Source of the DNA: an uncultured Actinomycetota bacterium
GTDB lineage: Bacteria; Actinomycetota; Actinomycetes; Propionibacteriales; Nocardioidaceae
Length of the DNA stretch: 64,000 bases
NCBI GenBank assembly: GCA_963808855.1
Contig: CAWEHA010000003.1
Location: 55,315-119,314 of the forward strand
Reading direction: 5' to 3'
Positions 2,586 to 64,000 of the stretch are shown here, piece after piece. Both the position numbers and the translations under genes were made by a program. Under the pieces are notes generated by a model, which saw only the letters and a list, made by a program, of their open reading frames with translations, was not told where the DNA came from and ran no database searches. The stretch's first letter is position 1, and every line of letters begins with the position of its first letter.

Positions 2586-4943
<2,358 letters not shown>

Positions 4944-27568: not shown

Positions 27569-27642
27569 CCATTGGATCCAATGGGGTGCTGGACACCGCC
27601 GCGCAGCCCGTGACAGGCTGCTACGGCACCTAGATCGGATCC
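27569..27642 (+). promoter_or_regulatory. Palindromic operator pair upstream of VOC-GntR operon
   Basis: Perfect 16-bp palindrome CCATTGGATCCAATGG (27569-84) and AGATCGGATCC (27632-42). Confidence 0.7.
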
Positions 27643-27666
27643 CACCTGCCTGTGCGGAGAGTGCCC

Positions 27667-28158
27667 ATGCCGATGCCGGGGTTGCGCCGGCTCGACCACG
27701 TCGGGTTCACCGTGCCCGACCTCGACGAGGCGCACCGGTTCCTGGTCGACGTGCTGGGCTGCGAGTACCTCTACACGCTCGGGCCGTTCGGTCCGTTCCC
27801 GGACGACTGGATGACCACCCACCTCGCCGTCCACCCGCGGGCGGTGATGGAGAACCGCTGGTACCGCTGCGGCGAGCAGGCGGTCTTCGAGGTGTTCCGC
27901 TACGACGTGCCGGAGCAGCGCGACACCCCGCCGCGCAACAGCGACGTCGGCGGCCATCACGTGGCGCTCTACGTCGATGACCTCGACGTGGCGATCGAGC
28001 ACCTGCGAGCCCACGACGTCGAGGTGTTCGCCGGCCCGACCGCCAGCCGGGGACCGGCCGAGGGCAACCGCTGGATCTACTTCCGCAGCCCGTGGGGGAT
28101 GCAGTTCGAGCTCGTCTCCTACCCCGAGGGCAAGCGGTGGGACCGGGAGACGGCATGA
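27667..28158 (+). CDS. VOC (glyoxalase/bleomycin resistance) family protein
   Basis: LDHVGFTVPDLD, FEVF, GGHHVALYVDD, YFRSPWGMQFELV. Confidence 0.9.
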   Translation: MPMPGLRRLDHVGFTVPDLDEAHRFLVDVLGCEYLYTLGPFGPFPDDWMTTHLAVHPRAVMENRWYRCGEQAVFEVFRYDVPEQRDTPPRNSDVGGHHVALYVDDLDVAIEHLRAHDVEVFAGPTASRGPAEGNRWIYFRSPWGMQFELVSYPEGKRWDRETA

Positions 28159-28817
28159 GCACCCCCGAGAAGGCGAGCGACGACGTCGGCAGCACCCGCG
28201 TCGCGGCCTATCTGCGCGAGGCGATCCTCAGCGGCGCCCTGCGCCCCGGCGACCGGATCCGGCAGGCCGAGGTGGCCGAGCGGCTCGGCGCCAGCCGGCT
28301 CCCGGTGCGCGAGGCGCTGCGCATGCTCGAGGCCGAGGGGCTCACCGAGAGCGAGGCTCACAAGGGCGCGCGCGTCCCGCGGCTCACCCAGCACGAGGTC
28401 GAGATGATCTACGAGATGCGCGAGCGGCTCGAGCCGCTGGCCCTGGTCGAGAGCCTCGGCCACCTCGACGAGGCCGACCTCGAGCGCCTCGACGAGGTGC
28501 AGCGCCGGATCGAGCAGAACGACGACGTCGAGAAGTTCCTCGACCTCGACCGCGAGTTCCACATGCTCACCTACAGCGCCTGCCACCTCGACACGCTGAT
28601 GTCGATGGTCACCCGCCTGTGGAACGCCACCCAGCACTACCGGCGCGCCTACGTGGCGCTCGGCGGCCGCGACCGGATGTGGGTGGTCAACGTCGAGCAC
28701 CGGCTGATCCTCGACGCGATGATGCGGCACGACGCCGTCGACGCCGAGCGCTACCTGGGCGGCCACATCCGCCGCACCCGCATCGCGCTCGGCCATCACC
28801 CCGGGGTGTTCGAGTGA
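28155..28817 (+). CDS. GntR family regulator (FCD domain)
   Basis: LREAILSGALRPGDRI, LGASRLPVREAL, DREFH. Confidence 0.93.
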   Translation: MSTPEKASDDVGSTRVAAYLREAILSGALRPGDRIRQAEVAERLGASRLPVREALRMLEAEGLTESEAHKGARVPRLTQHEVEMIYEMRERLEPLALVESLGHLDEADLERLDEVQRRIEQNDDVEKFLDLDREFHMLTYSACHLDTLMSMVTRLWNATQHYRRAYVALGGRDRMWVVNVEHRLILDAMMRHDAVDAERYLGGHIRRTRIALGHHPGVFE

Positions 28818-29281
28818 GCGACGCCGGGCCGGCGCTGCGCGTGAACGGCGAGCAGGTCCGACCCACGTCCGACGGCGAGACGCCGCTGCTCACCGTCCTG
28901 CGCGACGAGCTGGGCCTGGTCGGCAGCCGCTTCGGGTGCGGCCAGAGCCTGTGCGGCGCCTGCTTCGTCGACGTCGACGGCACGGTGCTGCCGTCGTGCC
29001 AGACCCCGTTGTGGCAGGTGGCGGACGCCTCGGTGACCACAGTGGAGGGCCTGTCGCGCGACGGTCGCCCGCACCCCGTGCAGCAGGCGATCCTCGACCG
29101 GCAGGCCGCGCAGTGCGGCTTCTGCATCTCCGGCATCGTGGTCGCCGCCGCCGCCCTGCTGCGCGACGAGCCGGACGCCGACGCCGCCCGGGTGGCGGAG
29201 GCGCTCGACCGCAACCTGTGCCGCTGCGGCGCGCAGACCCGCATCATCGACGCCGTGCTCGCGGCCCGGGAGCCGCGGTGA
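28814..29281 (+). CDS. Molybdenum hydroxylase 2x[2Fe-2S] small subunit (NicA/IorA-like)
   Basis: GCGQSLCGAC, QCGFC, NLCRCG. Confidence 0.93.
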   Translation: MSDAGPALRVNGEQVRPTSDGETPLLTVLRDELGLVGSRFGCGQSLCGACFVDVDGTVLPSCQTPLWQVADASVTTVEGLSRDGRPHPVQQAILDRQAAQCGFCISGIVVAAAALLRDEPDADAARVAEALDRNLCRCGAQTRIIDAVLAAREPR

Positions 29282-31293
29282 GCGACGTCCCGGCGCACGT
29301 CGCCGCCAACCCCCGGCTCGGTACCTGGCTGCACGTCGCGGGTGACGTGGTGGAGGTGCGGATCGGCAAGGTCGAGCTCGGCCAGGGGATCCTCACCGCC
29401 TTCGCCCAGCTGGCTGCCGACGCCCTCGGCGTGCCGCTCGCGACCGTGCGCGTGGTGGCTGCGCACACCGGCCTCGGCCCCGACCAGGGCACCACCGCCG
29501 GGAGCATGTCGGTGCTGCACTCGGGCCCGGCGCTGCGCCACGTCGGCGGTGTCGTGCGGGCGCTGGCCGGCCCCACCGACCCCATGCCCGACTACCTGGC
29601 GCGGATCGCGGCCCTCGACCCCGGCACCGACCTCACCGCCGTCGACCCCGCCTCGCCGCTCGCGCCGTCGAGCGTCGGCACGAGCGCCGGTCGGCTCGAC
29701 CTGCCCGACAAGGTGCTCGGCCGACCGCGCTACCTGGCCGACCTGCGCCCCGAGGGTCTGCTGCACGGACGCGTGCTGCGGCCGGCCACGCCGGGCGCCG
29801 CGCTGGTCGGGCTCGACGACGACTGGAAGGCCACCGGCGTCGACCTCGTGCGCGACGGCTCGTTCCTCGGCGTGGTCGGCGAGCGGGAGGTCGACGTCGA
29901 CCGCGCTCTCGAGCGGCTGCGCCACGACGCCTCCTGGTCGCCCGGCCACGAGCTGCCCGACGAGGACGACCTGCCGCGGTGGCTGCGCGACGGGCCGCAG
30001 CAGGAGATCCCGGTGCTCGACGAGCACGACGGCGAGCCGGCGCCCACGCTGACGGCGTCGTACGCCAAGCCGTTCCTGCTCCACGCCTCGATCGCCCCGA
30101 GCGCCGGGCTGGCGCGGTGGGACGCGGACGGGTCGCTGCACGTGTGGAGCCACAGCCAGGGCATCCGGCCGCTGCGCACGGCGATCGCCACCACCCTGGG
30201 CCTCGACCCCGAGCTCGTCGTCGTCGAGCACGTCGAGAACGCCGGATGCTACGGCCACAACGCCGCCGACGACGCCGCCTTCGACGCCGTGCTGCTGGCC
30301 CGGGCGGTGCCGGGGCGACCCGTGCTCGTGCGGTGGACGCGCGAGGACGAGCTCACCTGGGGTCCGCTGTCGCCCGCGATGACCGCGACTGTCTCGGCCA
30401 CCGTCGACGACGGCCGGATCACGTCCTGGAACCACGACGTGTGGAGCCTCGGCCACACCTCGCGCCCCGGCTACCGCGGAACTCCGGGCCTGCTGGCCGG
30501 GGCGCATCTCGCCGCACCGGTGCCGTTGCCGCCGCCCACGGACCCGCCACTGGAGCGAGGCGGCGGCACCACCCGCAACGCGGTGCCGATCTACGACGTC
30601 GGCCCCCGCCGGGTCACCGGTCACCGCCGCGAGGAGACGCCGCTGCGCACCTCGGCCATGCGCGGCCTGGGCGCCTACCTCAACGTCTTCGCCATCGAGA
30701 GCTTCGTCGACGAGCTGGCCGAGCACCTCGGCGTCGACCCGGTGCGGCTGCGCCTCGACCACCTCAGCGACCCACGAGCCGCCCACGTGGTCGAGACCGC
30801 GGCCCGGCTCGGCGGCTACCACGACGCCGTGCCCGACGACATCGGCCGCGGCCTGGGCTTCGCGCGCTACAAGGACAAGGGCGCCTACTGCGCGGTGGTG
30901 GCCGAGGTGTCGGTGCACGCCGAGGTGCGGGTGCGGCGGCTCACGGTGGTGGCCGACGTCGGCACGGTGGTCAACCCCGACGGCGCCCGCAACCAGCTCG
31001 AGGGCGGCGCCACCCAGGCCGCCAGCTGGACCGTCGTCGAGCGGGTGCGCTTCGACCGCACCCGGATCACCAGCTCCGACTGGGAGACCTACCCCGTCCT
31101 GCGGTTCAGCGCGGCGCCCCGGGTCGAGGCGCACCTCGTCGACAGCGACGCGCCGTCCACCGGCGCCGGCGAGGCTGCCCAGGGACCCACCGCCGCCGCG
31201 ATCGCCAACGCCGTGCACCGCGCGCTCGGCGTCCGGGTGCGTGACCTGCCGCTCGACGCCGCCGCCGTCGTCCGCGCCATCGACAAGACCTGA
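29278..31293 (+). CDS. Molybdopterin-binding large subunit (xanthine oxidase family, NicB/IorB-like)
   Basis: GKVELGQGILTAFAQ, SHSQG, AGCYGHNAADD, RTSAMRGLG, NPDGARNQLEGG, GAGEA. Confidence 0.9.
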   Translation: MSDVPAHVAANPRLGTWLHVAGDVVEVRIGKVELGQGILTAFAQLAADALGVPLATVRVVAAHTGLGPDQGTTAGSMSVLHSGPALRHVGGVVRALAGPTDPMPDYLARIAALDPGTDLTAVDPASPLAPSSVGTSAGRLDLPDKVLGRPRYLADLRPEGLLHGRVLRPATPGAALVGLDDDWKATGVDLVRDGSFLGVVGEREVDVDRALERLRHDASWSPGHELPDEDDLPRWLRDGPQQEIPVLDEHDGEPAPTLTASYAKPFLLHASIAPSAGLARWDADGSLHVWSHSQGIRPLRTAIATTLGLDPELVVVEHVENAGCYGHNAADDAAFDAVLLARAVPGRPVLVRWTREDELTWGPLSPAMTATVSATVDDGRITSWNHDVWSLGHTSRPGYRGTPGLLAGAHLAAPVPLPPPTDPPLERGGGTTRNAVPIYDVGPRRVTGHRREETPLRTSAMRGLGAYLNVFAIESFVDELAEHLGVDPVRLRLDHLSDPRAAHVVETAARLGGYHDAVPDDIGRGLGFARYKDKGAYCAVVAEVSVHAEVRVRRLTVVADVGTVVNPDGARNQLEGGATQAASWTVVERVRFDRTRITSSDWETYPVLRFSAAPRVEAHLVDSDAPSTGAGEAAQGPTAAAIANAVHRALGVRVRDLPLDAAAVVRAIDKT

Positions 31294-46160: not shown

Positions 46161-46289
46161 TGCAATCGTTTGTGATCGAACTGCCCAGAATCATCGATGT
46201 CAAGCCCTTCGCACGGTGAAACTGAGGTTGTTTCCCTGTTGTGATCGTTTGCAGGACGCCGCGAGTACAAGTCCAATACAAACGTTGGA
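46161..46289 (-). promoter_or_regulatory. ABC operon promoter TTGACA-17-TTCGAT with three LacI-type boxes
   Basis: TGCAATCGTTTGTGA (46161), GTGATCGTTTGCA (46241), TACAAACGTTGGA (46277). Confidence 0.7.
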
Positions 46290-55895: not shown

Positions 55896-57356
55896 CTACC
55901 AGCTGACGGCGACGTACTTCGACTCGAGATAGTCGAGCATGCCCTCGTGGCCGCCCTCGCGGCCGACGCCGGACTGCTTGGTGCCGCCGAAGGGGGCGGC
56001 GGGATCGGAGACGAGGCCGCGGTTGAGGCCGACCATGCCGGAGTCGAGCCGCTCGCTGAGCCGCAGCCCGCGGGCGAGGTCGGCGGTGTAGACGTAGGAC
56101 ACCAGGCCGTACTCGGTGTCGTTGGCCATCGCCACCACCTCGTCCTCCGAGGTGAAGGTGACGATCGGGGCCACCGGGCCGAAGATCTCCTCCGCCAGGA
56201 TGCCGGCGTCGCCGGGCACGTCGGCGAGCACGGTGGGCTCGAAGTAGAAGCCCTCCCGGTCGGGCCGCGCGCCCCCGACGAGCACGCGCGCGCCGGCGTC
56301 GACGGCGCCGCGGACGAGCTCGTCGACCTTGCCGGCCGTCTCGTCGTTGACCAGCGGGCCGACCTCGGTGCCGTCGGCGGTGCCGGGTCCGAGGCGCATC
56401 GCGCCCATCCGGTTCGCCAGTCGCTGGCCGAACTCCTCGGCCACGTCGGCGTGCACGTAGAAGCGGTTGGCGGCGGTGCAGGCCTCACCGGCGTTGCGCA
56501 TCTTGGCCACCATGGCGCCGTCGAGTGCGGCGTCGAGGTCGGCGTCGTCGAGCACGACGAACGGAGCGTTGCCGCCGAGCTCCATCGAGCAGTTGACCAC
56601 CTGGTCGGCGGCTTCGCGCAGCAGCACCCGCCCCACCTCGGTGCTTCCGGTGAACGACAGCTTGCGCACCCGCGGGTCGTGGAGCATCGCCGACACCACC
56701 GCACCCGAGCGCCGGGCCGGCAGCACGTTCACGACGCCGGCCGGCACGCCGGCGTCCTCGAGGATCTTGGCCATCAGCAGCGCGGTGAGGGGCGTGTCGC
56801 TCGCCGGCTTGAGGACGACGGTGCAGCCGGCCGCCAGCGCCGGGCCGATCTTGCGGGTGGCCATCGCCGCCGGGAAGTTCCACGGCGTCACGAGCACGCA
56901 GATGCCCACCGGCTGCCGCAGCACCACGATCTTGTTCGCACCCGACGGCGCGGTCATCACCGAGCCCTCGGCGCGCACCGCCTCCTCGGCGTACCAGCGG
57001 AAGAACTCCGCCGCGTAGGCCACCTCGCCGCGGGCGTCGGGGAGGGCCTTGCCGTTCTCCAGCGAGATCAGGTGCGCGAGGTCGTCGGCCCGCCCGGTCA
57101 TCAGCTCGAAGGCGCGGCGCAGCACCTCGGAGCGCTCGCGCGGTGCGGCGGCGGCCCAGGCCCCGGCCGCGGCGTCGGCGGCGTCGACGGCGGCCATCGC
57201 GTCGTCGACCGTGCCGTCGGCCACCGAGGTGAGCGCCGCGCCGGTGGCGGGGTCGATCACGTCGAAGCGCCCGCCGTCGGAGGCCGGCACCGCCTTGCCG
57301 CCGACGTAGAGGTCGACGGGCAGGTCGGGGAGGTCAGCGAGAGAGAAATCGCCCAT
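55896..57356 (-). CDS. gabD: NAD(P)-dependent succinate-semialdehyde dehydrogenase
   Basis: TPWNFPAAMATRK, SFTGSTEVG, MELGGNAP, AGEACT, EEIFGP. Confidence 0.9.
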   Translation of the reverse strand: MGDFSLADLPDLPVDLYVGGKAVPASDGGRFDVIDPATGAALTSVADGTVDDAMAAVDAADAAAGAWAAAAPRERSEVLRRAFELMTGRADDLAHLISLENGKALPDARGEVAYAAEFFRWYAEEAVRAEGSVMTAPSGANKIVVLRQPVGICVLVTPWNFPAAMATRKIGPALAAGCTVVLKPASDTPLTALLMAKILEDAGVPAGVVNVLPARRSGAVVSAMLHDPRVRKLSFTGSTEVGRVLLREAADQVVNCSMELGGNAPFVVLDDADLDAALDGAMVAKMRNAGEACTAANRFYVHADVAEEFGQRLANRMGAMRLGPGTADGTEVGPLVNDETAGKVDELVRGAVDAGARVLVGGARPDREGFYFEPTVLADVPGDAGILAEEIFGPVAPIVTFTSEDEVVAMANDTEYGLVSYVYTADLARGLRLSERLDSGMVGLNRGLVSDPAAPFGGTKQSGVGREGGHEGMLDYLESKYVAVSW

Positions 57357-57368
57357 GGTCGAGGCCTT

Positions 57369-58613
57369 TCAGTACGGGTTGGTGACGAACAGCTCCTCCG
57401 CGGGGAAGAGCGTGAGCACCCGCGGGCCGTCCTCGGTGATGACGATCTCCTCCTCGATGCGGGCCGCGGAGACACCGTCGCTGGCCGGGCAGTAGGTCTC
57501 GAGCGCGAAGACCATGCCGACCTGGAGCTCCACGGGCTCCTTCATCGAGTTGAGCCGGGAGATGATCGGGCGCTCGTGCAGCCCGAGCCCGAGGCCGTGC
57601 GCGAACTGCAGACCGAACGCCTGCATCTCGGACTCGAAGCCGAACTCCTCGGCCGCCGGCAGCAGCGCGGCCACCTCGTCGGTGCCGACGCCGGCCTTGA
57701 TGCCGTCGATGCCGCGGTCCATCCACTCCCGCGCCGTCTTGTACGCGTCGCGCTGCGCCGGCGTCGACCGGCCCACGGCGAACGTGCGGTAGTAGCAGGT
57801 GCGATAGCCGTTGAAGGAGTGGATGATGTCGAAGAACGCCTGGTCGCCGGGGCGCACCAGCCGGTCGGTGAAGTTGTGCGGGTGCGGGTTGCACCGCTCG
57901 CCGGAGATCGCGTTGATCGCCTCCACCTGGTCGGAGCCCATCTCGTAGAGCCGCTGGTTCGCCAGCGCCACGATCTGGTTCTCCCGCACGCCTGGCTTCA
58001 GCGCCTCGGTGATGTCCTGGTAGACGCCGTCGACCATCGCGACCGCCTGGTTGAGCAGGGTGATCTCGTCGGTGGACTTGATGCAGCGGGCGTCGAGCAT
58101 GTGCTGCTGGGCGTCGACGACGGTGAGCCCCTGCGCCTGCATCTCGAAGAGGAACGGCGGCTCCACGATGTCGACGCCGACCGGCAGGTCGGCCACGCCG
58201 GCCTCGACGAGCAACGACTTGATCTCCTGCACCGCGGACTTCATGAGCCCCACGGTCGGCGCCACGGCGCCGCGGAAGCCGAGGAAGCCCGCGCGGTAGT
58301 TCTCCTCCGGCACCCACTGCGAGTAGATCTTGTGGTGCTTCACCGCCGAGCCGAAGTCCCAGAGCACCGGGTCCTGGCCACGGGTGAGCAGCGCGTAGCG
58401 GATCATCTTGTCGCCGAGAGCGCCGCCGATCCACGTCTGCGTGGTGTAGCGGATGTTGTAGAAGTCGAAGAGCAGGAACGCCCCGCACTCGCTGGCCTCG
58501 AGCGCCTCCTTGGCGCGGCCGATGCGGTAGCGCCGCAGCCGGTCGAAGTCGACCCGCTCCTCGTAGTCGACCCCCATGTGGCCGGGGGCCGCGAGCGGTC
58601 TCCCGGCCGTCAC
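57369..58613 (-). CDS. M24 (pita-bread) family enzyme
   Basis: ARCIKS.DEI, FAHGLGLGLHERP, ALETY, RIEEE. Confidence 0.9.
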   Translation of the reverse strand: MTAGRPLAAPGHMGVDYEERVDFDRLRRYRIGRAKEALEASECGAFLLFDFYNIRYTTQTWIGGALGDKMIRYALLTRGQDPVLWDFGSAVKHHKIYSQWVPEENYRAGFLGFRGAVAPTVGLMKSAVQEIKSLLVEAGVADLPVGVDIVEPPFLFEMQAQGLTVVDAQQHMLDARCIKSTDEITLLNQAVAMVDGVYQDITEALKPGVRENQIVALANQRLYEMGSDQVEAINAISGERCNPHPHNFTDRLVRPGDQAFFDIIHSFNGYRTCYYRTFAVGRSTPAQRDAYKTAREWMDRGIDGIKAGVGTDEVAALLPAAEEFGFESEMQAFGLQFAHGLGLGLHERPIISRLNSMKEPVELQVGMVFALETYCPASDGVSAARIEEEIVITEDGPRVLTLFPAEELFVTNPY

Positions 58614-59572
58614 CCGCCGAGCCCGTCGTCGACGTCGACGTTCTCGGGCTTGAGCGTGAGGCCGGAGGCGTGTGCCTGGAGGTCGAGCAGGATGGCGAAG
58701 TCCTCCTCCACCCGGCCGCTGCTCACGGTGGCCTGGACGGCGGCCGCGGTGGCGGCGGCCACCGGCATCGGCACGTCGTGCTCGTGCGCGGCGGCGAAGC
58801 CCAGCTCGAGGTCCTTGCGGAGCAGCACGGGGGTGAAGGTCGGCGTGTAGTCGAGGTTCACGAATGCCGGCGTCTTGTACCGGGTGAACATCGACCCCAT
58901 CACCGAGTTGTTGAGGAAGTCGAGGAACGCGGCGCGGGTCATGCCGCCCTTCTCGGCCAGCACGGTCACCTCGGCCATGCTCTGGGTGACGACGCCGAGC
59001 ATCACGTTGTGGCAGATCTTGGCCAGGCGCGCGAGGTCGTCCTCGCCCACGTAGGTGGCGGCGCGGCCGAGGTGCGCCAGCAGCGGCGCCACGCGCAGGT
59101 AGGTCTCCTCGGGTCCGGACACCACGAGGCTGAGCTCGCCGGCCTTCACCACCTTGGCGTTGCCGCTCACCGGCGCGGCGAGGAACGCCACGCCGCGCTC
59201 GGCGCAGCGTGCCCGCATCTCGGCGGACGACTCGATCGACACCGTCGAGCAGTCGACGACCACGCCGGGAAGAGAGTCGGGGTCGGCGAGCAGGCCGCCG
59301 TCGCCCACGAGCACCTGCTCGAGGTCGGCCGGCGTCGACACCATCGTGAACACGACGTCGAGCGAGCGGAGGTCACCGATGGTGTCGGCCACGGCGCACC
59401 CCACGTCGGCGAGCGCCTCGGCCTTGGCGCGGGTGCGGTTCCAGACCGTGACGTCCTCCCCCGCGCCGGCGAGCCGGCCGGCCATCGCCGCGCCCATCCG
59501 GCCGGCACCGATCCAGCCGATCCGGAGGGTGCGGTCGGCGGGCGGCTCGGTGGCCGTGGGGGTGTCGGTCAT
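58610..59572 (-). CDS. Beta-hydroxyacid dehydrogenase (6PGD/3-hydroxyisobutyrate DH family)
   Basis: GWIGAGRMG, VDCSTV, AAPVSG, AKICHN. Confidence 0.9.
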   Translation of the reverse strand: MTDTPTATEPPADRTLRIGWIGAGRMGAAMAGRLAGAGEDVTVWNRTRAKAEALADVGCAVADTIGDLRSLDVVFTMVSTPADLEQVLVGDGGLLADPDSLPGVVVDCSTVSIESSAEMRARCAERGVAFLAAPVSGNAKVVKAGELSLVVSGPEETYLRVAPLLAHLGRAATYVGEDDLARLAKICHNVMLGVVTQSMAEVTVLAEKGGMTRAAFLDFLNNSVMGSMFTRYKTPAFVNLDYTPTFTPVLLRKDLELGFAAAHEHDVPMPVAAATAAAVQATVSSGRVEEDFAILLDLQAHASGLTLKPENVDVDDGLGG

Positions 59573-59599
59573 CGGTGGGCCTCCAGCACGGATCAGGAA

Positions 59600-59672
59600 T
59601 GCAAACGAGTGCAGTGTCTCGGCTGCGCAAACCCGGTGTCAAGCCACGCAAGGCCCGATGCAATCGGTTGCA
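59600..59672 (-). promoter_or_regulatory. Internal promoter (TTGACA 59637-42) flanked by two TGCAA-N4-(T/G)TGCA-type boxes
   Basis: TGCAAACGAGTGCA (59600) and TGCAATCGGTTGCA (59659). Confidence 0.6.
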
Positions 59673-59681
59673 GGAAACTGC

Positions 59682-60947
59682 TCAGGCGAGGATCGTGATC
59701 GGGTGCTCGACGACCTCGCGGAACGCGGCGAGCCAGCGTGCGGCCACCGCGCCGTCGACGGGCCGGTGGTCCACCGACAGCGTCACGGTCACGACCCGCC
59801 CGACGGCGAGCACGCCGTCGTCCACCACGGGCTCCTCGCGCACCGCCCCCACGGCCAGGATCGCCGCGTGCGGCGGGTTGATGATCGCCGCGAACTCCTC
59901 GACGCCGTACATGCCGAGGTTGGTGACGCTGATCGAGCCGCCCTCGAGCTCGTCCTGGCGCAGCCGGCCCGCGCGGGCGCGCTCGGCGAGGTCGCGCAGG
60001 CTGGTGGCGAGCCGGGTGAGCGTCAGCGAGCCGACGTCGCGCACCACCGGCGTCACCAGACCCCGGTCCGTGGCCACCGCCACGGCGACGTCGACGGTGT
60101 CGAAGGTGCGCACCGCGTCGGGGGTCCAGACGACGTTCAGCTCCGGCACCCGTCGATGGGCGACGGCCACCGCCTTCACCAGCAGGTCGGTCACCGACAC
60201 CCGCACCTCGGCCGCGCGGTTGACCTCCTCCCGCAGCGCCACCAGCGCGTCCGCCCGCAGCGTGGCGCGCAGGTAGAAGTGCGGCGCCTCCCGCTTGCTC
60301 TCCTGCAGCCGCGCGGCGACGGCGCGCCGCAGCCGGCTGTGCGGCACCTCGCCGGCCGATGCCTCCACCGGCGCCGGCTGCTCCGGCGCGGGGACGGCGG
60401 TGCGGGCGGCGACGGCGCGCTCGACGTCGCGGCGCAGCACCCGGTTGCGGGGGCCGGTGCCGGGGATCTCGTCGATCGGGAGGTTGGCCGCAGCGGCGAG
60501 CTTGCGGGCCAGCGGGCTGCTGAAGACGCGGCCGTTGCGGACCGGCGTCACCGGCACGTCCGACACAGGGGTCTCCACGAGCGGCGCACCCGAGCTCGGG
60601 TCGACGTCGGGGACGCCGGGCTCCGGCACGTCGCGACGCTCCGGCACGGTGGCGGCCACGGGCTCCGCCACCCCGAGCTCGGCGAACAGGGCGTCGCGGT
60701 CGGTCACCTGCTCGCCGGGGTCGCCGAGCACGGCGATCGGGGCGCCGACCTCCACCGCGGAGCCCGGGCCCACCAGCGTGGCGAGCACGGTGCCGGCCAC
60801 CTCGGCCTCGACGTCGACCAGCGCCTTCTCGGTCTCGACGGTGGCGATCACCTCGCCGGCAGCGAAGTCACCGGTCACCAGCCACTCGGCGAGCACCGCC
60901 TCGGTGGCATTGGCCGCCACCTCGGGCATGCGCAGGACCCGGGCCAT
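59682..60947 (-). CDS. 2-oxoacid dehydrogenase E2 (dihydrolipoamide acyltransferase)
   Basis: Lipoyl VETEKA, E3/E1-binding SPLARKLA, catalytic DHRPVDG. Confidence 0.95.
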   Translation of the reverse strand: MARVLRMPEVAANATEAVLAEWLVTGDFAAGEVIATVETEKALVDVEAEVAGTVLATLVGPGSAVEVGAPIAVLGDPGEQVTDRDALFAELGVAEPVAATVPERRDVPEPGVPDVDPSSGAPLVETPVSDVPVTPVRNGRVFSSPLARKLAAAANLPIDEIPGTGPRNRVLRRDVERAVAARTAVPAPEQPAPVEASAGEVPHSRLRRAVAARLQESKREAPHFYLRATLRADALVALREEVNRAAEVRVSVTDLLVKAVAVAHRRVPELNVVWTPDAVRTFDTVDVAVAVATDRGLVTPVVRDVGSLTLTRLATSLRDLAERARAGRLRQDELEGGSISVTNLGMYGVEEFAAIINPPHAAILAVGAVREEPVVDDGVLAVGRVVTVTLSVDHRPVDGAVAARWLAAFREVVEHPITILA

Positions 60948-60950
60948 GGC

Positions 60951-63133
60951 TCAGTACCTCGCGATCTCGTCGAGCGCGGCGGTGACCTCGTCGCGCTGGG
61001 CGATCGCCGCGCGCTCGAGCACCTTGCTGATGCTCGGCGAGGCCTCGCCGCCGGTGACCCGCCACACGGGGGCGTCGAGCAGGTCGAAGAACCGGCGGTG
61101 CAGCTCGTCGGCCAGCCACCCTCCGTAGGAGGTGCCGATCGCGCCCTGCTCGGCGACGAGCACGTGGTTGGTGCGGGTGAGCGACTCCTCGATGGTGTCC
61201 CAGTCGATGCTCGCGCGGTCGAGCCAGCGCAGGTCGATCACCTCGGCGTCCACCTGGTCGTGGGCCTCGGCGGCCTCGAGGGCGTACGGCGTCATGCCGA
61301 GGTAGGTGAGCACGGTGACGTCGGAGCCGGGGCGTCGCACCGCGGCCTTGCCCACGGGGAGGCAGTAGTCCCAGTCGTCCACCGGGCCGGGTCCGGTGCT
61401 GGTGTAGAGGTCGACGTGCTCGAGCACGACCACGGGGTCGTCGAGCCGCAGGGCGGTGTTCATCAGGCCGACGTAGTCGTACGGCGTGGTGGGGGCGACG
61501 ATGCGCCAGCCCGGGTTGGTGGCGAAGACGCCGGCGGGATCCATCGAGTGCTGCGAGCCGTAGCCGGTGCCCATCGCCACCTTGCTGCGCAGCACGAGCG
61601 GCACCGCGCCGCCGCCGCCGTACATGTGGCGGGCCTTGCCGATCTGGTTGAAGAGCTGGTCGGCCGCCACCCACATGAAGTCGGCGTACATGAACTCGAC
61701 GACGGGCCGGTGCCGCCCGTCGATCGCGATGCCGCCGGCCAGGCCGGCGAACGCGTTCTCACTGATCGGCGTGCCGAGGACGCGGCCGGGGAAGCGCGTC
61801 CGGCGAGGCCGCGGGTGGCGCCGTTCGTCCCACCGTTGAGCCGATGCACGTCCTCGCCCATCACCACGACGCCCGGGTCGGTCTCCATCCGGCGACCCAG
61901 CACGGTGGCGATCGCGTCGACCAGCTTGGTGTCCTGCACCTCCACCGCGTGGCCCTCCGGAGCGACGAGCGGGGCGTCGTCGAGCTCGGACAGGTCGCCG
62001 CGCACGCCGACGTCGACCCACGCGGGGTCGGGCCACTCGGTCGGCCGGATCCGGCGCTGGCCGGGCTTGCCGTCGGGGTCGGGCTCGAGGAGCACGTCGC
62101 CGATCTCGGCCATGACGGCGCGCGCCCGGCTGACGGCGTCCGCGGTCTCCTCGGCCGTCATCAGCCCGCGCCGCTCCAGGTGGGCGGCGGTGGTGGTGAG
62201 CGGGTCGCGCTCGCGCCACGCGCGCTCCTCGGCCTTGTCGCGGTAGCCGAACGCACTGCCCGCGAAGCCGCCGTTCTGGTGGAAGAACCGGTAGGTGTCG
62301 ACCTCCACAACGGTGGGCCCGCGACCGCGCCGCATGTGCTCCACCGCCTCGGTCATGGCCAGGTGCACCGCGAGCGGGTCCATCCCGTCGACCCGCCAGC
62401 TCGCGATGCCGAACCCGCCGCCGCGGGCCGACAGCCGCGCCTCGGCGGTGGCCTCGTGCACCGACGTCGAGACGGCGTACTGGTTGTTCTCGACGAAGAA
62501 ACAGACCGGCAGCGACCACGCCGCCGCGAGGTTCATGGTCTCCAGGGTGGAGCCGATGTTGATGGCGCCGTCGCCGAAGTAGGTGACCGACACGGCGTCG
62601 GTGCCGGCCTGCCGGTGCGCCCAGGCGAGGCCGGCGGCCGGGGGCACGCCGCCGCCGACGATGGCGTTGGTGCCCATCGCGCCGGCGTCCTTCCACTGCA
62701 GGTGCATCGAGCCACCGCGGCCGTGGCTCCACCCGCGGTCGAGGCCGCAGATCTCGGCGAGCGTGCGCAGCAGCACCTCGCGCACGTCGTCGGAGGGCGC
62801 GGCCAGCGGGTCCATCCCCTTGGGCTCCACGTGGTGCAGCGCCTTGGCGAGGAACTGGTGGTGCCCGCGGTGCGAGCCACCCACGGAGTCGTGACTGGTG
62901 AGGGCGAGCACGGAGCCGACGGCGCCGCCCTCCTGCCCGATGCTCGAGTGGGCGGGGCCGTGCACGAGACCGGCTCCGGCGAGCTCGAGCACGTACTGCT
63001 CGAACACCCGGATCCACACGAGCTGGGCGTAGGTGGTGCGCAGCAGGTCGGGGTCGGCGGCGTCCCAGTCGGCGTCGGTGACGACGAGCTCGACCCAGGG
63101 TGCGGCCGGCGCGAGGGGATTGTGCTCGGGCAT
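60951..63133 (-). CDS. 2-oxoacid dehydrogenase E1 alpha-beta fusion (apparent frameshift near 61800)
   Basis: HSSIGQE, SHRGH, FGDGA...ENNQYA; beta part GEDV, TPISENAF, VVEFMYADF, GSQHS. Confidence 0.9.
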
Positions 63134-63151
63134 GGGGCACTTTCCCACACG

Positions 63152-63214
63152 ATTGGATCCTAAATCCAGGGTTCGAGCCCTCAGAAGGGTCGCTGCACGG
63201 CAGATCGGATCCGA
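63152..63214. promoter_or_regulatory. Operator pair ATTGGATCC / AGATCGGATCC in the E1-SBP divergent region
   Basis: Same two motifs, in the same order, as at 27571 and 27632. Confidence 0.65.
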
Positions 63215-63228
63215 AATGCAGTACGGTC

Positions 63229-64000
63229 GTGGCTGTGGTCACCACCGATCTCGTCGTCGGGTCGTTCACGCCGTCCGTGGTGCTCGACGTCGCCCGCTCC
63301 ACCGGCCGGCTCGAGGCGGCCGGGCTCGCGGTCACCGAGGAGCCCGTCACCTCCTCCCCCGCCCAGTTCGGCGACCTCCTCGAGGGCCGGCTCGACGTCG
63401 GCCTCACCAGTCCCGACAACGTGCTGGCCTACCGCTTCGACCCCGCCAACCCGCTCGGCCGCACCGCCGACGTGCGCATCGTCGCCGCGATCGACCGGGG
63501 CCTCGGGCTCGGCCTGTACGGCCGCCCCGGCGCCACCCCCGCCGACCTGCGCGGGGCACGGGTCGGCGTCGACGTGCCGACCTCCGGGTTCGCGCTCGCG
63601 CTCTACGCCCTCGCCGACGCGCTCGGGGTCGGGCGCGACGAGTACGAGCTCGTCAAGCTCGGCTCCACCCCGCGCCGGCTCGAGGCGCTGCTCGCCGGCG
63701 AGTGCACCGCCACCATGCTCAACGCCGGCAACGAGCTCGTCGCCGAGGGCCGGGGCTGCGTGCGGCTCGCCGGTGTGGCTGAGCACCTCTCGCCCTATCT
63801 CGGCACCGTCGTGGTGGTCGACGGCGAGCGCCATCTCGACGACGCCGAGCGGCTGTCCGGCGTGATGGTCGACGTCGCGGCGGCGCTGCACGCCGGCCTC
63901 CTCGACGACGTCGCCGCCCGGTCGGCGTCCCAGCGGCTCGGGCTCGACGCCGCACTGGCCGAGCGCTACGTCGCCCGGCTACGCGACCCGCTCGACGGTC
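63229..64000 (+). CDS. NMT1/THI5/TauA-like ABC substrate-binding protein (partial)
   Basis: Open frame from GTG 63229 to window end: VTSSPAQF..LLEGRLDVGLTSPDN..GVDVPTSGFA..GSTPRRLEALLAGEC. Confidence 0.75.
   Translation, partial: MAVVTTDLVVGSFTPSVVLDVARSTGRLEAAGLAVTEEPVTSSPAQFGDLLEGRLDVGLTSPDNVLAYRFDPANPLGRTADVRIVAAIDRGLGLGLYGRPGATPADLRGARVGVDVPTSGFALALYALADALGVGRDEYELVKLGSTPRRLEALLAGECTATMLNAGNELVAEGRGCVRLAGVAEHLSPYLGTVVVVDGERHLDDAERLSGVMVDVAAALHAGLLDDVAARSASQRLGLDAALAERYVARLRDPLDG

What the first reader, a model, noticed from the sequence alone, without database searches (positions are those of the whole stretch)
55896..63133. Dedicated E1(alpha-beta)/E2 + beta-hydroxyacid DH + M24 + GabD operon: unassigned degradation route ending in succinate
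A special-purpose 2-oxoacid dehydrogenase without E3 is clustered with a hydrolase-like M24 protein and SSADH. Together with the co-regulated NicAB-like hydroxylase and VOC protein, this suggests hydroxylation, ring opening and oxidative decarboxylation of an N-heteroaromatic compound to succinate semialdehyde. It does not match the maleamate (nicCXDFE) or pyr pathways I know.
Basis: inference. Interest (0 to 1): 0.55.

Follow-up and report, generated by a model that had tools for sequence, protein, structure and literature searches.

The report
Conserved M24 plus E1/E2 catabolic genes
These five genes are this bacterium's rearranged copy of a breakdown pathway found in hundreds of actinobacteria and some marine bacteria. 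It pairs an unusual peptidase-like enzyme with a pyruvate-dehydrogenase-like complex, and the compound it degrades is still unknown.

Summary
All five genes are at the stated coordinates on the minus strand: a GabD-type aldehyde dehydrogenase, an M24-fold protein, a beta-hydroxyacid dehydrogenase, E2 and a fused E1 alpha-beta.

Corrections to the observation:
- The fused E1 reading frame is broken at about 61797-61805. This may be an assembly error, because the genome shows about 177 similar breaks.
- The "operon" is two transcription units. E1-E2 carries a TTGGATCCAA box shared only with the VOC-GntR-MoCoBD promoter at 27.6 kb. Dehydrogenase-M24-ALDH has its own promoter with LacI operators.
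- E3 is supplied from elsewhere in the genome.

The gene set is real and widely conserved. The M24 protein has relatives at 77-91% identity in at least 590 species. In loci with full flanks, the dehydrogenase is present in 77%, the ALDH in 68% and the fused E1 in 61%. A Roseobacter plasmid carries the same set.

The M24 site Asp/Cys/His/Glu/Glu is invariant, so it is not an ordinary peptidase. The E1 is neither an ordinary PDH nor an ordinary BCKDH. The ALDH keeps the arginines that bind a distal anionic group.

The substrate remains unidentified. The N-heteroaromatic reading is possible but unproven. The neighbouring sulfolactate genes are not conserved partners. This scan met the same cluster before in other genomes, also without finding a substrate.

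The parts
55896..57356 (-). GabD-type NAD(P)-dependent aldehyde dehydrogenase (SSADH-like), last gene of the LacI-controlled unit
   Evidence: PF00171 537 bits. TIGR01780 SSADH 571 bits, below its 646 cut-off. E. coli GabD 3jz4 502 bits, with the catalytic Cys and both distal-anion Arg retained (MATRK; RNAGEAC). Orthologues of at least 50% identity in 39 of 57 full loci.
57369..58613 (-). M24 'pita-bread' fold protein with an Asp/Cys/His/Glu/Glu site; non-peptidase hydrolase or lyase of unknown substrate
   Evidence: PF00557 123 bits. DddP model NF043017 only 99 bits against a 600 cut-off, but aligned over the full length. Full-length match to DddP structures 4s01/4b28. D262/C273/H339/E372/E388 invariant in 81 homologues. 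At least 590 species at 77-91% identity.
58610..59572 (-). Beta-hydroxyacid dehydrogenase family enzyme (HIBADH-like), first gene of the LacI-controlled unit
   Evidence: PF03446 + PF14833. All NCBIfam equivalogs below cut-off. Closest structures are glyoxylate/succinic-semialdehyde reductases, GHB dehydrogenases and 2-(hydroxymethyl)glutarate dehydrogenase. Present in 44 of 57 full loci.
59573..59681 (-). Promoter/operator region of the dehydrogenase-M24-ALDH unit: -35 TTGACA (59642-59637), LacI-type palindromes at 59659-59672 and 59600-59613, RBS GGAGG
   Evidence: Sequence read. The motif has 5 hits in the window against 0.72 expected. In relatives the same motif lies upstream of LivK (33), HIBADH (27), SBP (15), the FrsA-like hydrolase (9) and LacI (9), but E1ab only once.
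59682..60947 (-). E2 dihydrolipoamide acyltransferase with lipoyl, E3-binding and catalytic domains
   Evidence: PF00364 + PF02817 + PF00198. Lipoyl-Lys context ETEKA and catalytic DHRPVDG are visible in the translation. TIGR01349 380 bits, below its 445 cut-off.
60951..63133 (-). Fused E1 alpha-beta (TPP-dependent) gene; reading frame broken at about 61797-61805 in this assembly
   Evidence: E1_dh in the frame of ORF 61463-63148, and Transket_pyr + Transketolase_C in the frame of ORF 60951-63419. Net +2 nt against the intact G017 orthologue. Fused and in frame in 38 of 39 relatives. Flagged by the frame-switch scan.
63134..63234 (.). Divergent promoter region between E1 alpha-beta and the binding-protein-like gene, with boxes TTGGATCCTA (63153-63162) and GATCGGATCC (63203-63212)
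   Evidence: The same two boxes occur upstream of VOC at 27572 and 27633 and in the single E1ab|VOC intergenic region of G017.
63235..64000 (+). Periplasmic-binding-protein-fold gene (continues beyond the window), followed by MFS, LacI (frame-split) and a family III CoA-transferase
   Evidence: Weak PF12974 match. Orthologous SBP-MFS-LacI sits beside the dehydrogenase-M24-ALDH unit in relatives. The LacI hits fall in two frames.
27572..27642 (+). Operator-like boxes TTGGATCCAA (27572-27581) and GATCGGATCC (27633-27642) upstream of VOC
   Evidence: Across 80 loci, nearly all of the 30 intergenic TTGGATCCAA sites lie upstream of E1ab (28) and/or VOC (21).
27652..28158 (+). VOC/glyoxalase-fold protein, orthologue (77%) of the VOC gene that sits next to E1 alpha-beta in relatives
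   Evidence: PF13669/PF00903. tblastn 77% identity. Closest structure is methylmalonyl-CoA epimerase, weak at 27.5 bits.
28182..28817 (+). GntR/FCD-family regulator, likely repressor of the E1-E2 and VOC-GntR-MoCoBD units
   Evidence: PF00392 + PF07729. 77% identical to the GntR that flanks VOC/E1ab in relatives.
28936..31293 (+). Xanthine-oxidase-family molybdopterin-binding subunit (MoCoBD_1 + MoCoBD_2 only)
   Evidence: 73% identical to the MoCoBD gene lying between ALDH and GntR in relatives. Present in 11 of 57 full loci.

Best explanation
The region is a rearranged copy of a widespread, uncharacterised catabolic gene set built from two regulatory modules.

Module A is LacI-controlled. 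It comprises uptake genes, a GHB-dehydrogenase/SSA-reductase-like beta-hydroxyacid dehydrogenase, an M24-fold non-peptidase enzyme with an invariant Asp/Cys/His/Glu/Glu site, and a GabD-type aldehyde dehydrogenase. Relatives also have a DHPON-hydrolase-like C-C hydrolase, which is lost here.

Module B is GntR/FCD-controlled through a TTGGATCCAA box. It comprises a VOC protein, a fused TPP-dependent E1 alpha-beta, a lipoyl E2 and, in some genomes, a MoCoBD oxidoreductase.

Inferred mechanism: the M24 enzyme hydrolyses or eliminates a C-N (or C-C/C-S) bond of a small polar substrate. The dehydrogenase and the ALDH oxidise an omega-hydroxy fragment, via a semialdehyde carrying a distal anionic group, to a dicarboxylate (succinate or a close analogue). 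The E1/E2 pair, with the cell's shared E3, performs an oxidative TPP/lipoyl C-C cleavage, either of a 2-oxoacid or of an acyloin, to give an acyl-CoA.

Shown: gene content, conservation, the two operators, the altered metal site and the rearrangement. Inferred: every chemical step and the substrate.

In G000, E1-E2 has moved from beside VOC into the slot of the lost hydrolase gene, and about 24 kb of sulfonate-metabolism genes separate the two modules.
For: - Domains and frames.
- Conservation: at least 590 species carry the M24 protein at 77-91% identity. In 57 loci with full flanks, HIBADH is present in 44, ALDH in 39, E1ab in 35 and E2 in 32. The set is contiguous as HIB>M24>ALDH>E1ab>E2 in L078, L035 and L039.
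- An independent copy on Phaeobacter plasmids reads SBP-SDR-M24(62%)-E1a-E1b-lipoyl-SSADH-E2-Lpd. A Streptomyces plasmid carries the same set. In G013 a 55% paralogue is followed by E1a and E1b.
- Regulation: LacI boxes; TTGGATCCAA/GATCGGATCC boxes only at the E1ab and VOC promoters.
- Dedicated enzymes: housekeeping E1/E2/E3 lie elsewhere. The E1 is below all equivalog cut-offs and equidistant from PDH and BCKDH.
- The M24 site is invariant.
- The ALDH keeps the Arg pair (roles from PMC11681614 and bioRxiv 10.1101/2023.03.13.532361).
- HIBADH is closest to SSA/glyoxylate reductases and Hgd. The accessory hydrolase is closest to DHPON hydrolase, AntI and Ayg1.
Against: - No enzyme was assayed and no paper describing the cluster was found.
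- The two modules have different regulators and are separated in many genomes. E1ab is missing from 39% of full loci, so they might serve related but distinct substrates.
- Transporter types differ between lineages (Liv-type, sugar-type CUT2, SBP_bac_1, MFS), so the substrate may not be the same everywhere.
- In G000 the E1 frame is broken and LacI is split, so this copy may be partly inactive.
Confidence: 0.6

Rival explanations
1. N-heterocycle route. A hydroxylated pyridine/pyridone or cyclic imide is reduced, and the ring is opened hydrolytically by the M24 enzyme, as ectoine hydrolase DoeA opens a cyclic amidine. The chain is then oxidised via a semialdehyde, and a 2-oxo-dicarboxylate is decarboxylated by E1/E2.
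For: - Known M24 non-peptidases include C-N hydrolases such as creatinase and DoeA (weak matches).
- Accessory genes in relatives: a MoCoBD hydroxylase subunit, a DHPON-hydrolase-like enzyme (2jbw, 7e-45), an amine oxidase, Amidohydro_1/3, and RidA/amidase in paralogous clusters.
- Liv-type importers.
- HIBADH is close to Hgd of nicotinate fermentation.
Against: - MoCoBD is present in only 11 of 57 full loci and lacks Fe-S, FAD or cytochrome partners.
- The core shared with Roseobacters has no hydroxylase, amidase or deaminase.
- Variants with an 86-88% identical M24 use sugar-type ABC systems.
- No nic or pyr pathway gene turned up in the loci.
Confidence: 0.2
2. Acyloin-cleaving route (acetoin-dehydrogenase logic). 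A six-carbon cyclic or linear hydroxy-diketone, for example reduced hydroxyquinol or a deoxy-cyclitol derivative, is opened to a 4-hydroxy-5-oxo acid. E1/E2 then splits this into acetyl-CoA (or another acyl-CoA) plus succinate semialdehyde, which the ALDH oxidises to succinate.
For: - The carbon arithmetic fits the enzyme set: reductase/dehydrogenase, ring or bond hydrolase, TPP/lipoyl cleavage, SSADH-type ALDH.
- There is a precedent for ring cleavage of hydroxybenzoquinone by bqdLMS in Aromatoleum anaerobium (PMC10084136). That Bqd proteins resemble PDH components is from my memory of Darley et al. 2007, which is not held here.
- Sugar-type ABC systems, LacI regulators and an OYE ene-reductase occur in some loci.
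- The retro-Claisen hydrolase relatives AntI and Ayg1 act on polyhydroxy-aromatics.
Against: - The known ring-opening enzyme of reduced phloroglucinol is an isatin-hydrolase-type protein, not M24 (PMC10470551).
- No paper on such intermediates was found.
- No M24 enzyme is known to cleave C-C bonds.
- I could not test whether the E1 is nearer to AcoA than to PdhA, because no reference sequences were available.
Confidence: 0.2
3. Organosulfonate route specific to this genome. The dehydrogenase and the GabD-like ALDH convert dihydroxypropanesulfonate via sulfolactaldehyde to sulfolactate, feeding the SuyAB lyase 8 kb away.
For: - SuyAB-like genes, a candidate sulfite-oxidising Mo enzyme, SulP and a TauABC-type importer lie at 42-56 kb (earlier notes).
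- Sulfolactaldehyde dehydrogenases are GabD-like and use the same Arg pair.
- Sulfolactaldehyde reductase belongs to the HIBADH family (weak match).
Against: - None of 80 related loci has SuyB, the Mo enzyme or SulP within 10 kb.
- In relatives ALDH is next to CMD/MoCoBD, so the sulfonate block looks like an insertion.
- This route explains neither M24 nor E1/E2.
Confidence: 0.07
4. Decaying remnant. In this strain the cluster is being lost (E1 and LacI frameshifted, hydrolase gene deleted) and has no function.
For: - The E1 frame break and the split LacI.
- No FrsA-like hydrolase and no Liv transporter orthologue in G000.
Against: - The assembly has about 177 same-strand frame switches in about 4,200 ORFs. 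These include clear breaks inside an acyl-CoA dehydrogenase at a poly-G run and inside a WS/DGAT gene, so indel errors are the simpler explanation.
- All other genes are intact with strong coding signal.
- Promoters and operators are preserved.
Confidence: 0.15

Closest known systems
Acetoin dehydrogenase enzyme system (AcoA/AcoB/AcoC/AcoL) with butanediol dehydrogenase
   Same: A special-purpose heterotetramer-class TPP E1 plus lipoyl E2, clustered with an alcohol dehydrogenase and an aldehyde-consuming step. E3 is often shared with other complexes.
   Different: - The E1 here is a single alpha-beta fusion.
- The cluster always carries an M24-fold enzyme and usually a VOC protein.
- The ALDH is an SSADH type with arginines for an anionic substrate.
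- Control is by LacI and GntR/FCD, not AcoR.
- Membership could not be tested.
Pyruvate / branched-chain 2-oxoacid dehydrogenase complexes (alpha2beta2 E1 class)
   Same: PF00676 + PF02779 + PF02780 domains. E2 has lipoyl, PSBD and catalytic domains.
   Different: - Below all NCBIfam equivalog cut-offs.
- Equidistant from PDH and BCKDH structures.
- G000 has separate housekeeping complexes.
DddP (M24-fold DMSP lyase), ectoine hydrolase DoeA/EutD and creatinase
   Same: Pita-bread fold used for a non-peptide substrate. Full-length architecture is alignable with DddP structures 4s01/4rzy/4b28.
   Different: - Only 99 bits against the DddP model (cut-off 600), 55 bits for DoeA, and 37 bits for a creatinase structure.
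- The second metal-binding Asp is an invariant Cys.
- The genomic partners are entirely different.
Nicotine/nicotinate catabolic clusters (pAO1 DHPON hydrolase, KDH/NDH, SSADH; E. barkeri Hgd)
   Same: Relatives combine a DHPON-hydrolase-like C-C hydrolase, a xanthine-oxidase-family subunit, an amine oxidase, an SSADH-type ALDH and an Hgd-like dehydrogenase.
   Different: - No Fe-S or FAD subunits beside MoCoBD.
- No M24 or E1/E2 in the known nicotine/nicotinate routes (my knowledge).
- The hydrolase and MoCoBD genes are accessory, and the hydrolase is absent from G000.
Succinate-semialdehyde dehydrogenase GabD / sulfolactaldehyde dehydrogenase
   Same: About 50% identity to E. coli GabD. The catalytic Cys and both distal-anion arginines are kept.
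   Different: - Below the SSADH subfamily cut-off (571 against 646 bits).
- It is a dedicated second copy beside a housekeeping paralogue at C2:259976.
- The true substrate is untested.

Membership tests
2-oxoacid dehydrogenase E1, heterotetramer (alpha/beta) class | TPP-binding E1_dh alpha domain (PF00676) | tested here: met
   195 bits in the frame of ORF 61463-63148.
2-oxoacid dehydrogenase E1, heterotetramer (alpha/beta) class | Transketolase-like pyrimidine-binding and C-terminal beta domains | tested here: met
   PF02779 86 bits and PF02780 66 bits in the frame of ORF 60951-63419. The first ~36 profile positions lie in the other frame.
2-oxoacid dehydrogenase E1, heterotetramer (alpha/beta) class | Uninterrupted coding sequence | tested here: not met
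   Net +2 nt against the intact G017 orthologue at about 61797-61805. This may be an assembly error.
Pyruvate dehydrogenase / BCKDH (equivalog level) | Score above the curated NCBIfam cut-off | tested here: not met
   TIGR03182 239 against 394; NF006667 195 against 321; E2 TIGR01349 380 against 445.
2-oxoacid dehydrogenase E2 | Lipoyl domain with lipoyl-Lys, E3-binding domain, and catalytic domain with DHRxxDG | tested here: met
   PF00364, PF02817 and PF00198. ETEKA and DHRPVDG are visible in the translation.
Acetoin dehydrogenase enzyme system | E1 grouping with AcoA/AcoB rather than PdhA/BkdA | tested here: inconclusive
   No AcoA-specific model matched. NF011457 matched only the lipoyl domain. 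The control genomes gave no reference sequences.
M24 metallopeptidases (prolidase / aminopeptidase P) | Canonical Asp-Asp-His-Glu-Glu dinuclear metal site | tested here: not met
   The second Asp is Cys273. D/C/H/E/E is invariant in 81 homologues.
DddP DMSP lyase | Score above the NF043017 cut-off | tested here: not met
   99 bits against a 600 cut-off.
Succinate-semialdehyde dehydrogenase (GabD) | Catalytic Cys plus the Arg213/Arg334 equivalents that bind the substrate carboxylate | tested here: met
   Alignment to 3jz4. Residue roles from the papers. The Ser498 equivalent is Gly, as in the housekeeping paralogue.
Succinate-semialdehyde dehydrogenase (GabD) | Score above the TIGR01780 / NF008415 cut-offs | tested here: not met
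   571 against 646, and 532 against 828.
3-hydroxyisobutyrate dehydrogenase family | NAD_binding_2 + NAD_binding_11 domains; equivalog score | tested here: inconclusive
   The domains are met. All equivalogs are below cut-off: HIBADH 146 against 292, tartronate semialdehyde reductase 145 against 341.
NicAB-type nicotinate hydroxylase | 2Fe-2S small subunit plus a large subunit with MoCo and cytochrome c domains | tested here: not met
   Only MoCoBD_1 and MoCoBD_2 are present. No Fe-S or cytochrome gene was found adjacent.
SuyAB-linked organosulfonate pathway | Conserved co-location of the cluster with SuyAB or sulfite-handling genes | tested here: not met
   None of 80 related loci.

The most novel reading that the evidence does not exclude
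The invariant Asp/Cys/His/Glu/Glu M24 branch is a new enzyme activity: a ring-opening or bond-cleaving hydrolase or lyase on a non-peptide substrate. It feeds a dedicated PDH-like complex that splits a roughly six-carbon intermediate into an acyl-CoA and a succinate-semialdehyde-type aldehyde. That would make this a widespread, undescribed catabolic pathway of Actinomycetota (including freshwater acI lineages) and marine Roseobacters for an abundant but unrecognised natural compound.
Probability: 0.3. Interest if true: 0.75.

Novelty: new variant of a known kind. Interest (0 to 1): 0.55.

Why it matters
The gene set is one of the more widespread "pathway holes" in Actinomycetota. It occurs in at least 590 species, in soil, freshwater and marine lineages, and has no assigned substrate. 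It contains two biochemical oddities: an M24-fold enzyme whose metal site always carries Cys in place of Asp, and a fused E1 alpha-beta with a dedicated E2.

Two operators are now defined (the LacI palindrome and the TTGGATCCAA box), and many cultured carriers are listed. That makes the question directly testable with reporter or binding-protein ligand screens. Solving it would assign function to thousands of genes now mislabelled "Xaa-Pro aminopeptidase" and "alpha-ketoacid dehydrogenase".

Tried and rejected
Context came from the search for related loci, the genome search and annotated plasmids instead.
- **Literature searches** found nothing on this cluster. I tried the gene combination, acetoin + Xaa-Pro + SSADH, hydroxyhydroquinone reductase and 4-hydroxy-5-oxohexanoate.
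- **Aromatoleum resorcinol cluster**: only a secondary paper was readable. Darley 2007 and Pacheco-Sanchez 2017 are not held. I could not check whether that cluster contains an M24 gene.
- **AcoA versus PdhA placement of the E1**: the control genomes are only tallied, with no sequences returned.
- **The protein atlas** gave only generic peptidase names.
- **Distant M24 paralogues** (Haloferax pHV4 at 35%, a Paenarthrobacter plasmid at 53%) sit in different contexts and were not informative.
- **The ALDH Ser-to-Gly change** as a specificity marker is rejected, because the housekeeping paralogue has it too.
- **My first E1-beta query** was one base out of frame and matched a shadow frame. It was corrected.
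- **The first frame-switch scan** could include antisense shadows. A stricter version gave the same count. Only two cases were verified by eye, so the true number of frameshifts is uncertain.

Full report
**Observation**

The window is about 73% GC, so I used GC3 frame plots to separate real genes from shadow ORFs. On the minus strand between 55896 and 63133 lie five genes:
- a GabD-type aldehyde dehydrogenase (55896-57356);
- an M24-fold protein (57369-58613);
- a beta-hydroxyacid dehydrogenase family enzyme (58610-59572);
- an E2 acyltransferase with lipoyl, E3-binding and catalytic domains (59682-60947);
- a fused E1 alpha-beta gene (60951-63133).

The fused E1 is not one open frame here. 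The E1_dh alpha domain reads in the frame of ORF 61463-63148. The transketolase-like beta domains read in the frame of ORF 60951-63419. Aligned with the intact 742-aa orthologue of relative G017, G000 has a net +2 nt at about 61797-61805, at the start of the beta module. No start codon nearby would allow a separate beta subunit.

In 38 of 39 related loci the two modules form one continuous frame. The assembly as a whole shows about 177 same-strand frame switches among about 4,200 ORFs. At least two are unmistakable breaks inside single genes: an acyl-CoA dehydrogenase at a poly-G run and a WS/DGAT gene. The cluster's LacI gene is also split. I therefore cannot tell a pseudogene from an assembly indel, and error is the simpler reading.

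**Transcription units and regulation**

The 110-bp gap between E2 and the dehydrogenase holds, in order, a LacI-type palindrome (TGCAACCGATTGCA), a TTGACA -35 box and a second palindrome (TGCACTCGTTTGCA), followed by GGAGG and the ATG. Across 80 related loci this motif lies upstream of the Liv-type binding-protein gene (33 sites), the dehydrogenase (27), the SBP-like gene (15), an FrsA-like hydrolase (9) and LacI itself (9). It lies upstream of E1 alpha-beta only once.

The E1 promoter region carries two GGATCC-centred boxes instead. TTGGATCCAA (one mismatch or fewer) occurs only twice in the 64-kb window, at 63153 upstream of E1 and at 27572 upstream of a VOC gene. The expected count is 0.21, and none of 100 shuffles reached two. 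Exact GATCGGATCC occurs only at 63203 and 27633. In the related loci, nearly all of the 30 intergenic TTGGATCCAA sites lie upstream of E1 alpha-beta (28) and/or VOC (21).

The "operon" is therefore two units: E1-E2 in a regulon with VOC-GntR-MoCoBD, and dehydrogenase-M24-ALDH in a LacI regulon.

**Conservation**

- The M24 protein has close relatives (77-91% identity) in at least 590 species of Actinomycetota. These include Nocardioides, Blastococcus, Mycolicibacterium, Streptomyces, Actinoplanes, Microbacteriaceae and freshwater Nanopelagicaceae/Planktophila. All carry only generic peptidase names.
- In the 57 loci with full 10-kb flanks, the dehydrogenase is present in 44, the GabD-type ALDH in 39, fused E1 in 35, E2 in 32 and LacI in 34. 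In several loci the five genes are contiguous (L078, L035, L039).
- Unbiased clustering of neighbours found further recurrent partners:
  - a Liv-type ABC importer;
  - an FrsA-like hydrolase directly upstream of the dehydrogenase;
  - VOC and GntR/FCD genes tightly paired with E1;
  - a MoCoBD subunit with a CMD-family protein;
  - an amine oxidase and amidohydrolases;
  - in one sub-lineage, E3, an SDR and a sugar-type ABC system.
- The same core occurs on Roseobacter plasmids. In Phaeobacter it reads SBP-SDR-M24 (62%)-E1a-E1b-lipoyl protein-SSADH-E2-Lpd. It also occurs on a Streptomyces plasmid.
- A 55% paralogue in relative G013 is followed by separate E1a and E1b genes.

**What is special about G000**

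In close relatives the order is E2<E1ab< | VOC>GntR>MoCoBD>CMD> | ALDH<M24<HIB<hydrolase< | SBP>MFS>LacI>. In G000:
- The VOC, GntR and MoCoBD orthologues (77, 77 and 73% identity) lie at 27652-31293.
- E1-E2 now sits where relatives have the hydrolase gene, which G000 lacks.
- About 24 kb separates the two modules. This block includes an AprAB-like pair, a LacI regulon, a TauABC-type importer, SuyAB-like genes, a bis-MGD molybdoenzyme with an FeS-NrfD partner, GntR and SulP.
- Both GGATCC boxes are present at both separated promoters, as if the ancestral divergent intergenic region had been duplicated in the rearrangement.

None of the 80 related loci has SuyB, the molybdoenzyme or SulP nearby. 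The sulfonate neighbourhood is therefore not a conserved partner.

**The enzymes**

- **E1.** It scores below every PDH equivalog cut-off. Its alpha module is about equally far from PDH (125 bits) and BCKDH (89 bits) structures. G000 has a separate E1a/E1b/E2 operon, a SucA-type E1 and Lpd elsewhere. The acetoin type could not be tested.
- **E2.** It has the lipoyl-lysine context and the DHRxxDG motif.
- **M24.** The protein aligns over its whole length with DddP structures but scores only 99 bits on the DddP model. Its ligand set Asp262/Cys273/His339/Glu372/Glu388 is invariant in 81 homologues, including the Roseobacter, Paenarthrobacter and Haloferax copies.
- **ALDH.** It is about 50% identical to E. 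coli GabD and keeps the catalytic Cys and both arginines that bind the distal carboxylate of succinate semialdehyde. The third residue (Ser) is Gly, but also in the housekeeping paralogue. Sulfolactaldehyde dehydrogenases use the same arginines for a sulfonate. The residues therefore indicate an aldehyde with a distal anion, not specifically succinate semialdehyde.
- **Dehydrogenase.** Its closest structures are glyoxylate/succinic-semialdehyde reductases, GHB dehydrogenases and 2-(hydroxymethyl)glutarate dehydrogenase.
- **Accessory hydrolase.** The closest solved relative is DHPON hydrolase (7e-45), then AntI and Ayg1. All are retro-Claisen C-C hydrolases.
- **VOC.** It weakly resembles methylmalonyl-CoA epimerase.

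**Interpretation**

The data establish a dedicated, two-regulon catabolic gene set of unknown substrate. The most economical chemistry is this:
1. The M24 enzyme cleaves a bond of a small polar compound.
2. The dehydrogenase and the ALDH oxidise an omega-hydroxy fragment, via a semialdehyde, to a dicarboxylate.
3. E1/E2, with the shared E3, performs an oxidative TPP/lipoyl cleavage to an acyl-CoA.

Two more specific readings remain open at about 0.2 each. The second is an acetoin-type cleavage of a C6 hydroxy-oxo acid into acyl-CoA plus succinate semialdehyde. A sulfonate role and a decayed remnant are less likely. No paper describing the cluster was found. The phloroglucinol ring-opening enzyme belongs to a different family.

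**Earlier work in this scan**

The same M24/dehydrogenase/E1 cluster was noted and followed up on other genomes, and no substrate was identified there either.
- the two operators and the two-regulon structure;
- the quantified synteny across 80 loci;
- the rearrangement and frame break specific to this genome;
- the invariance of the Cys site;
- the assignment of the accessory hydrolase to the DHPON-hydrolase/AntI/Ayg1 group.

Noticed in passing
G000:C3:120646-121657 (just beyond the window end; L016 about 2650-3660): The cluster's LacI gene matches its orthologue in two different frames, with the junction at about C3:121289. This is a second apparent frameshift 4 kb from the E1 break.
   Followed up: partly
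whole genome G000: About 177 same-strand frame switches with coding signature on both sides, among about 4,200 ORFs. Clear examples are at C2:324607 (acyl-CoA dehydrogenase, poly-G run) and C1:409281 (WS/DGAT). The assembly looks indel-prone, so 'pseudogenes' in it need read-level checks.
   Followed up: partly
window 63235-64000 and L016:415-1464: The 'substrate-binding protein' next to E1 starts without an obvious signal peptide (N-terminus V-V-T-T-D-L-V-V-G-S-F-T-P...). It is followed by an MFS gene, not ABC permeases, so it may be a cytoplasmic PBP-fold protein and not a transport component.
   Followed up: no
window 31300-55800 compared with relatives L011, L012, L017-L021: About 24 kb (AprAB-like pair, LacI regulon, TauABC-type importer, SuyAB-like lyase, Mo enzyme, SulP) sits in G000 between MoCoBD and ALDH. 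In relatives those two genes are only a CMD gene apart. The block looks like an insertion into the conserved cluster.
   Followed up: partly
window 46161-46174 and 46240-46253: Near-copies of the LacI-type palindrome seen at 59600 and 59659 also lie in the ABC-transporter/SuyB intergenic region. Two LacI paralogues (the one at 34.7 kb is 46% identical to the cluster LacI) may cross-regulate.
   Followed up: no
L012:14512-15690, also L022, L030, L031, L033, L042, L091: A second, creatinase-like M24 gene (Creatinase_N + Peptidase_M24), about 26% identical to the main one, recurs next to LacI or MFS in relatives. It is absent from G000.
   Followed up: no
L016:3708-4895: A family III CoA-transferase follows LacI in G000. 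It is not conserved in the related loci (one weak hit in 80).
   Followed up: partly
L099 (Haloferax volcanii pHV4, 527715-546932): A 35% M24 homologue with the same Asp/Cys/His/Glu/Glu site lies near a TPP-binding protein, a HIBADH-like oxidoreductase, a cupin, EthD proteins and hydantoinase A/B. This is a possible archaeal analogue of the pathway.
   Followed up: no
L048:20274-21230 and other Mycolicibacterium loci: An Old-Yellow-Enzyme ene-reductase follows E2, and a different ALDH (35-37% identical) replaces the GabD-type one beside GntR-VOC in Mycolicibacterium and Microbacteriaceae.
   Followed up: no
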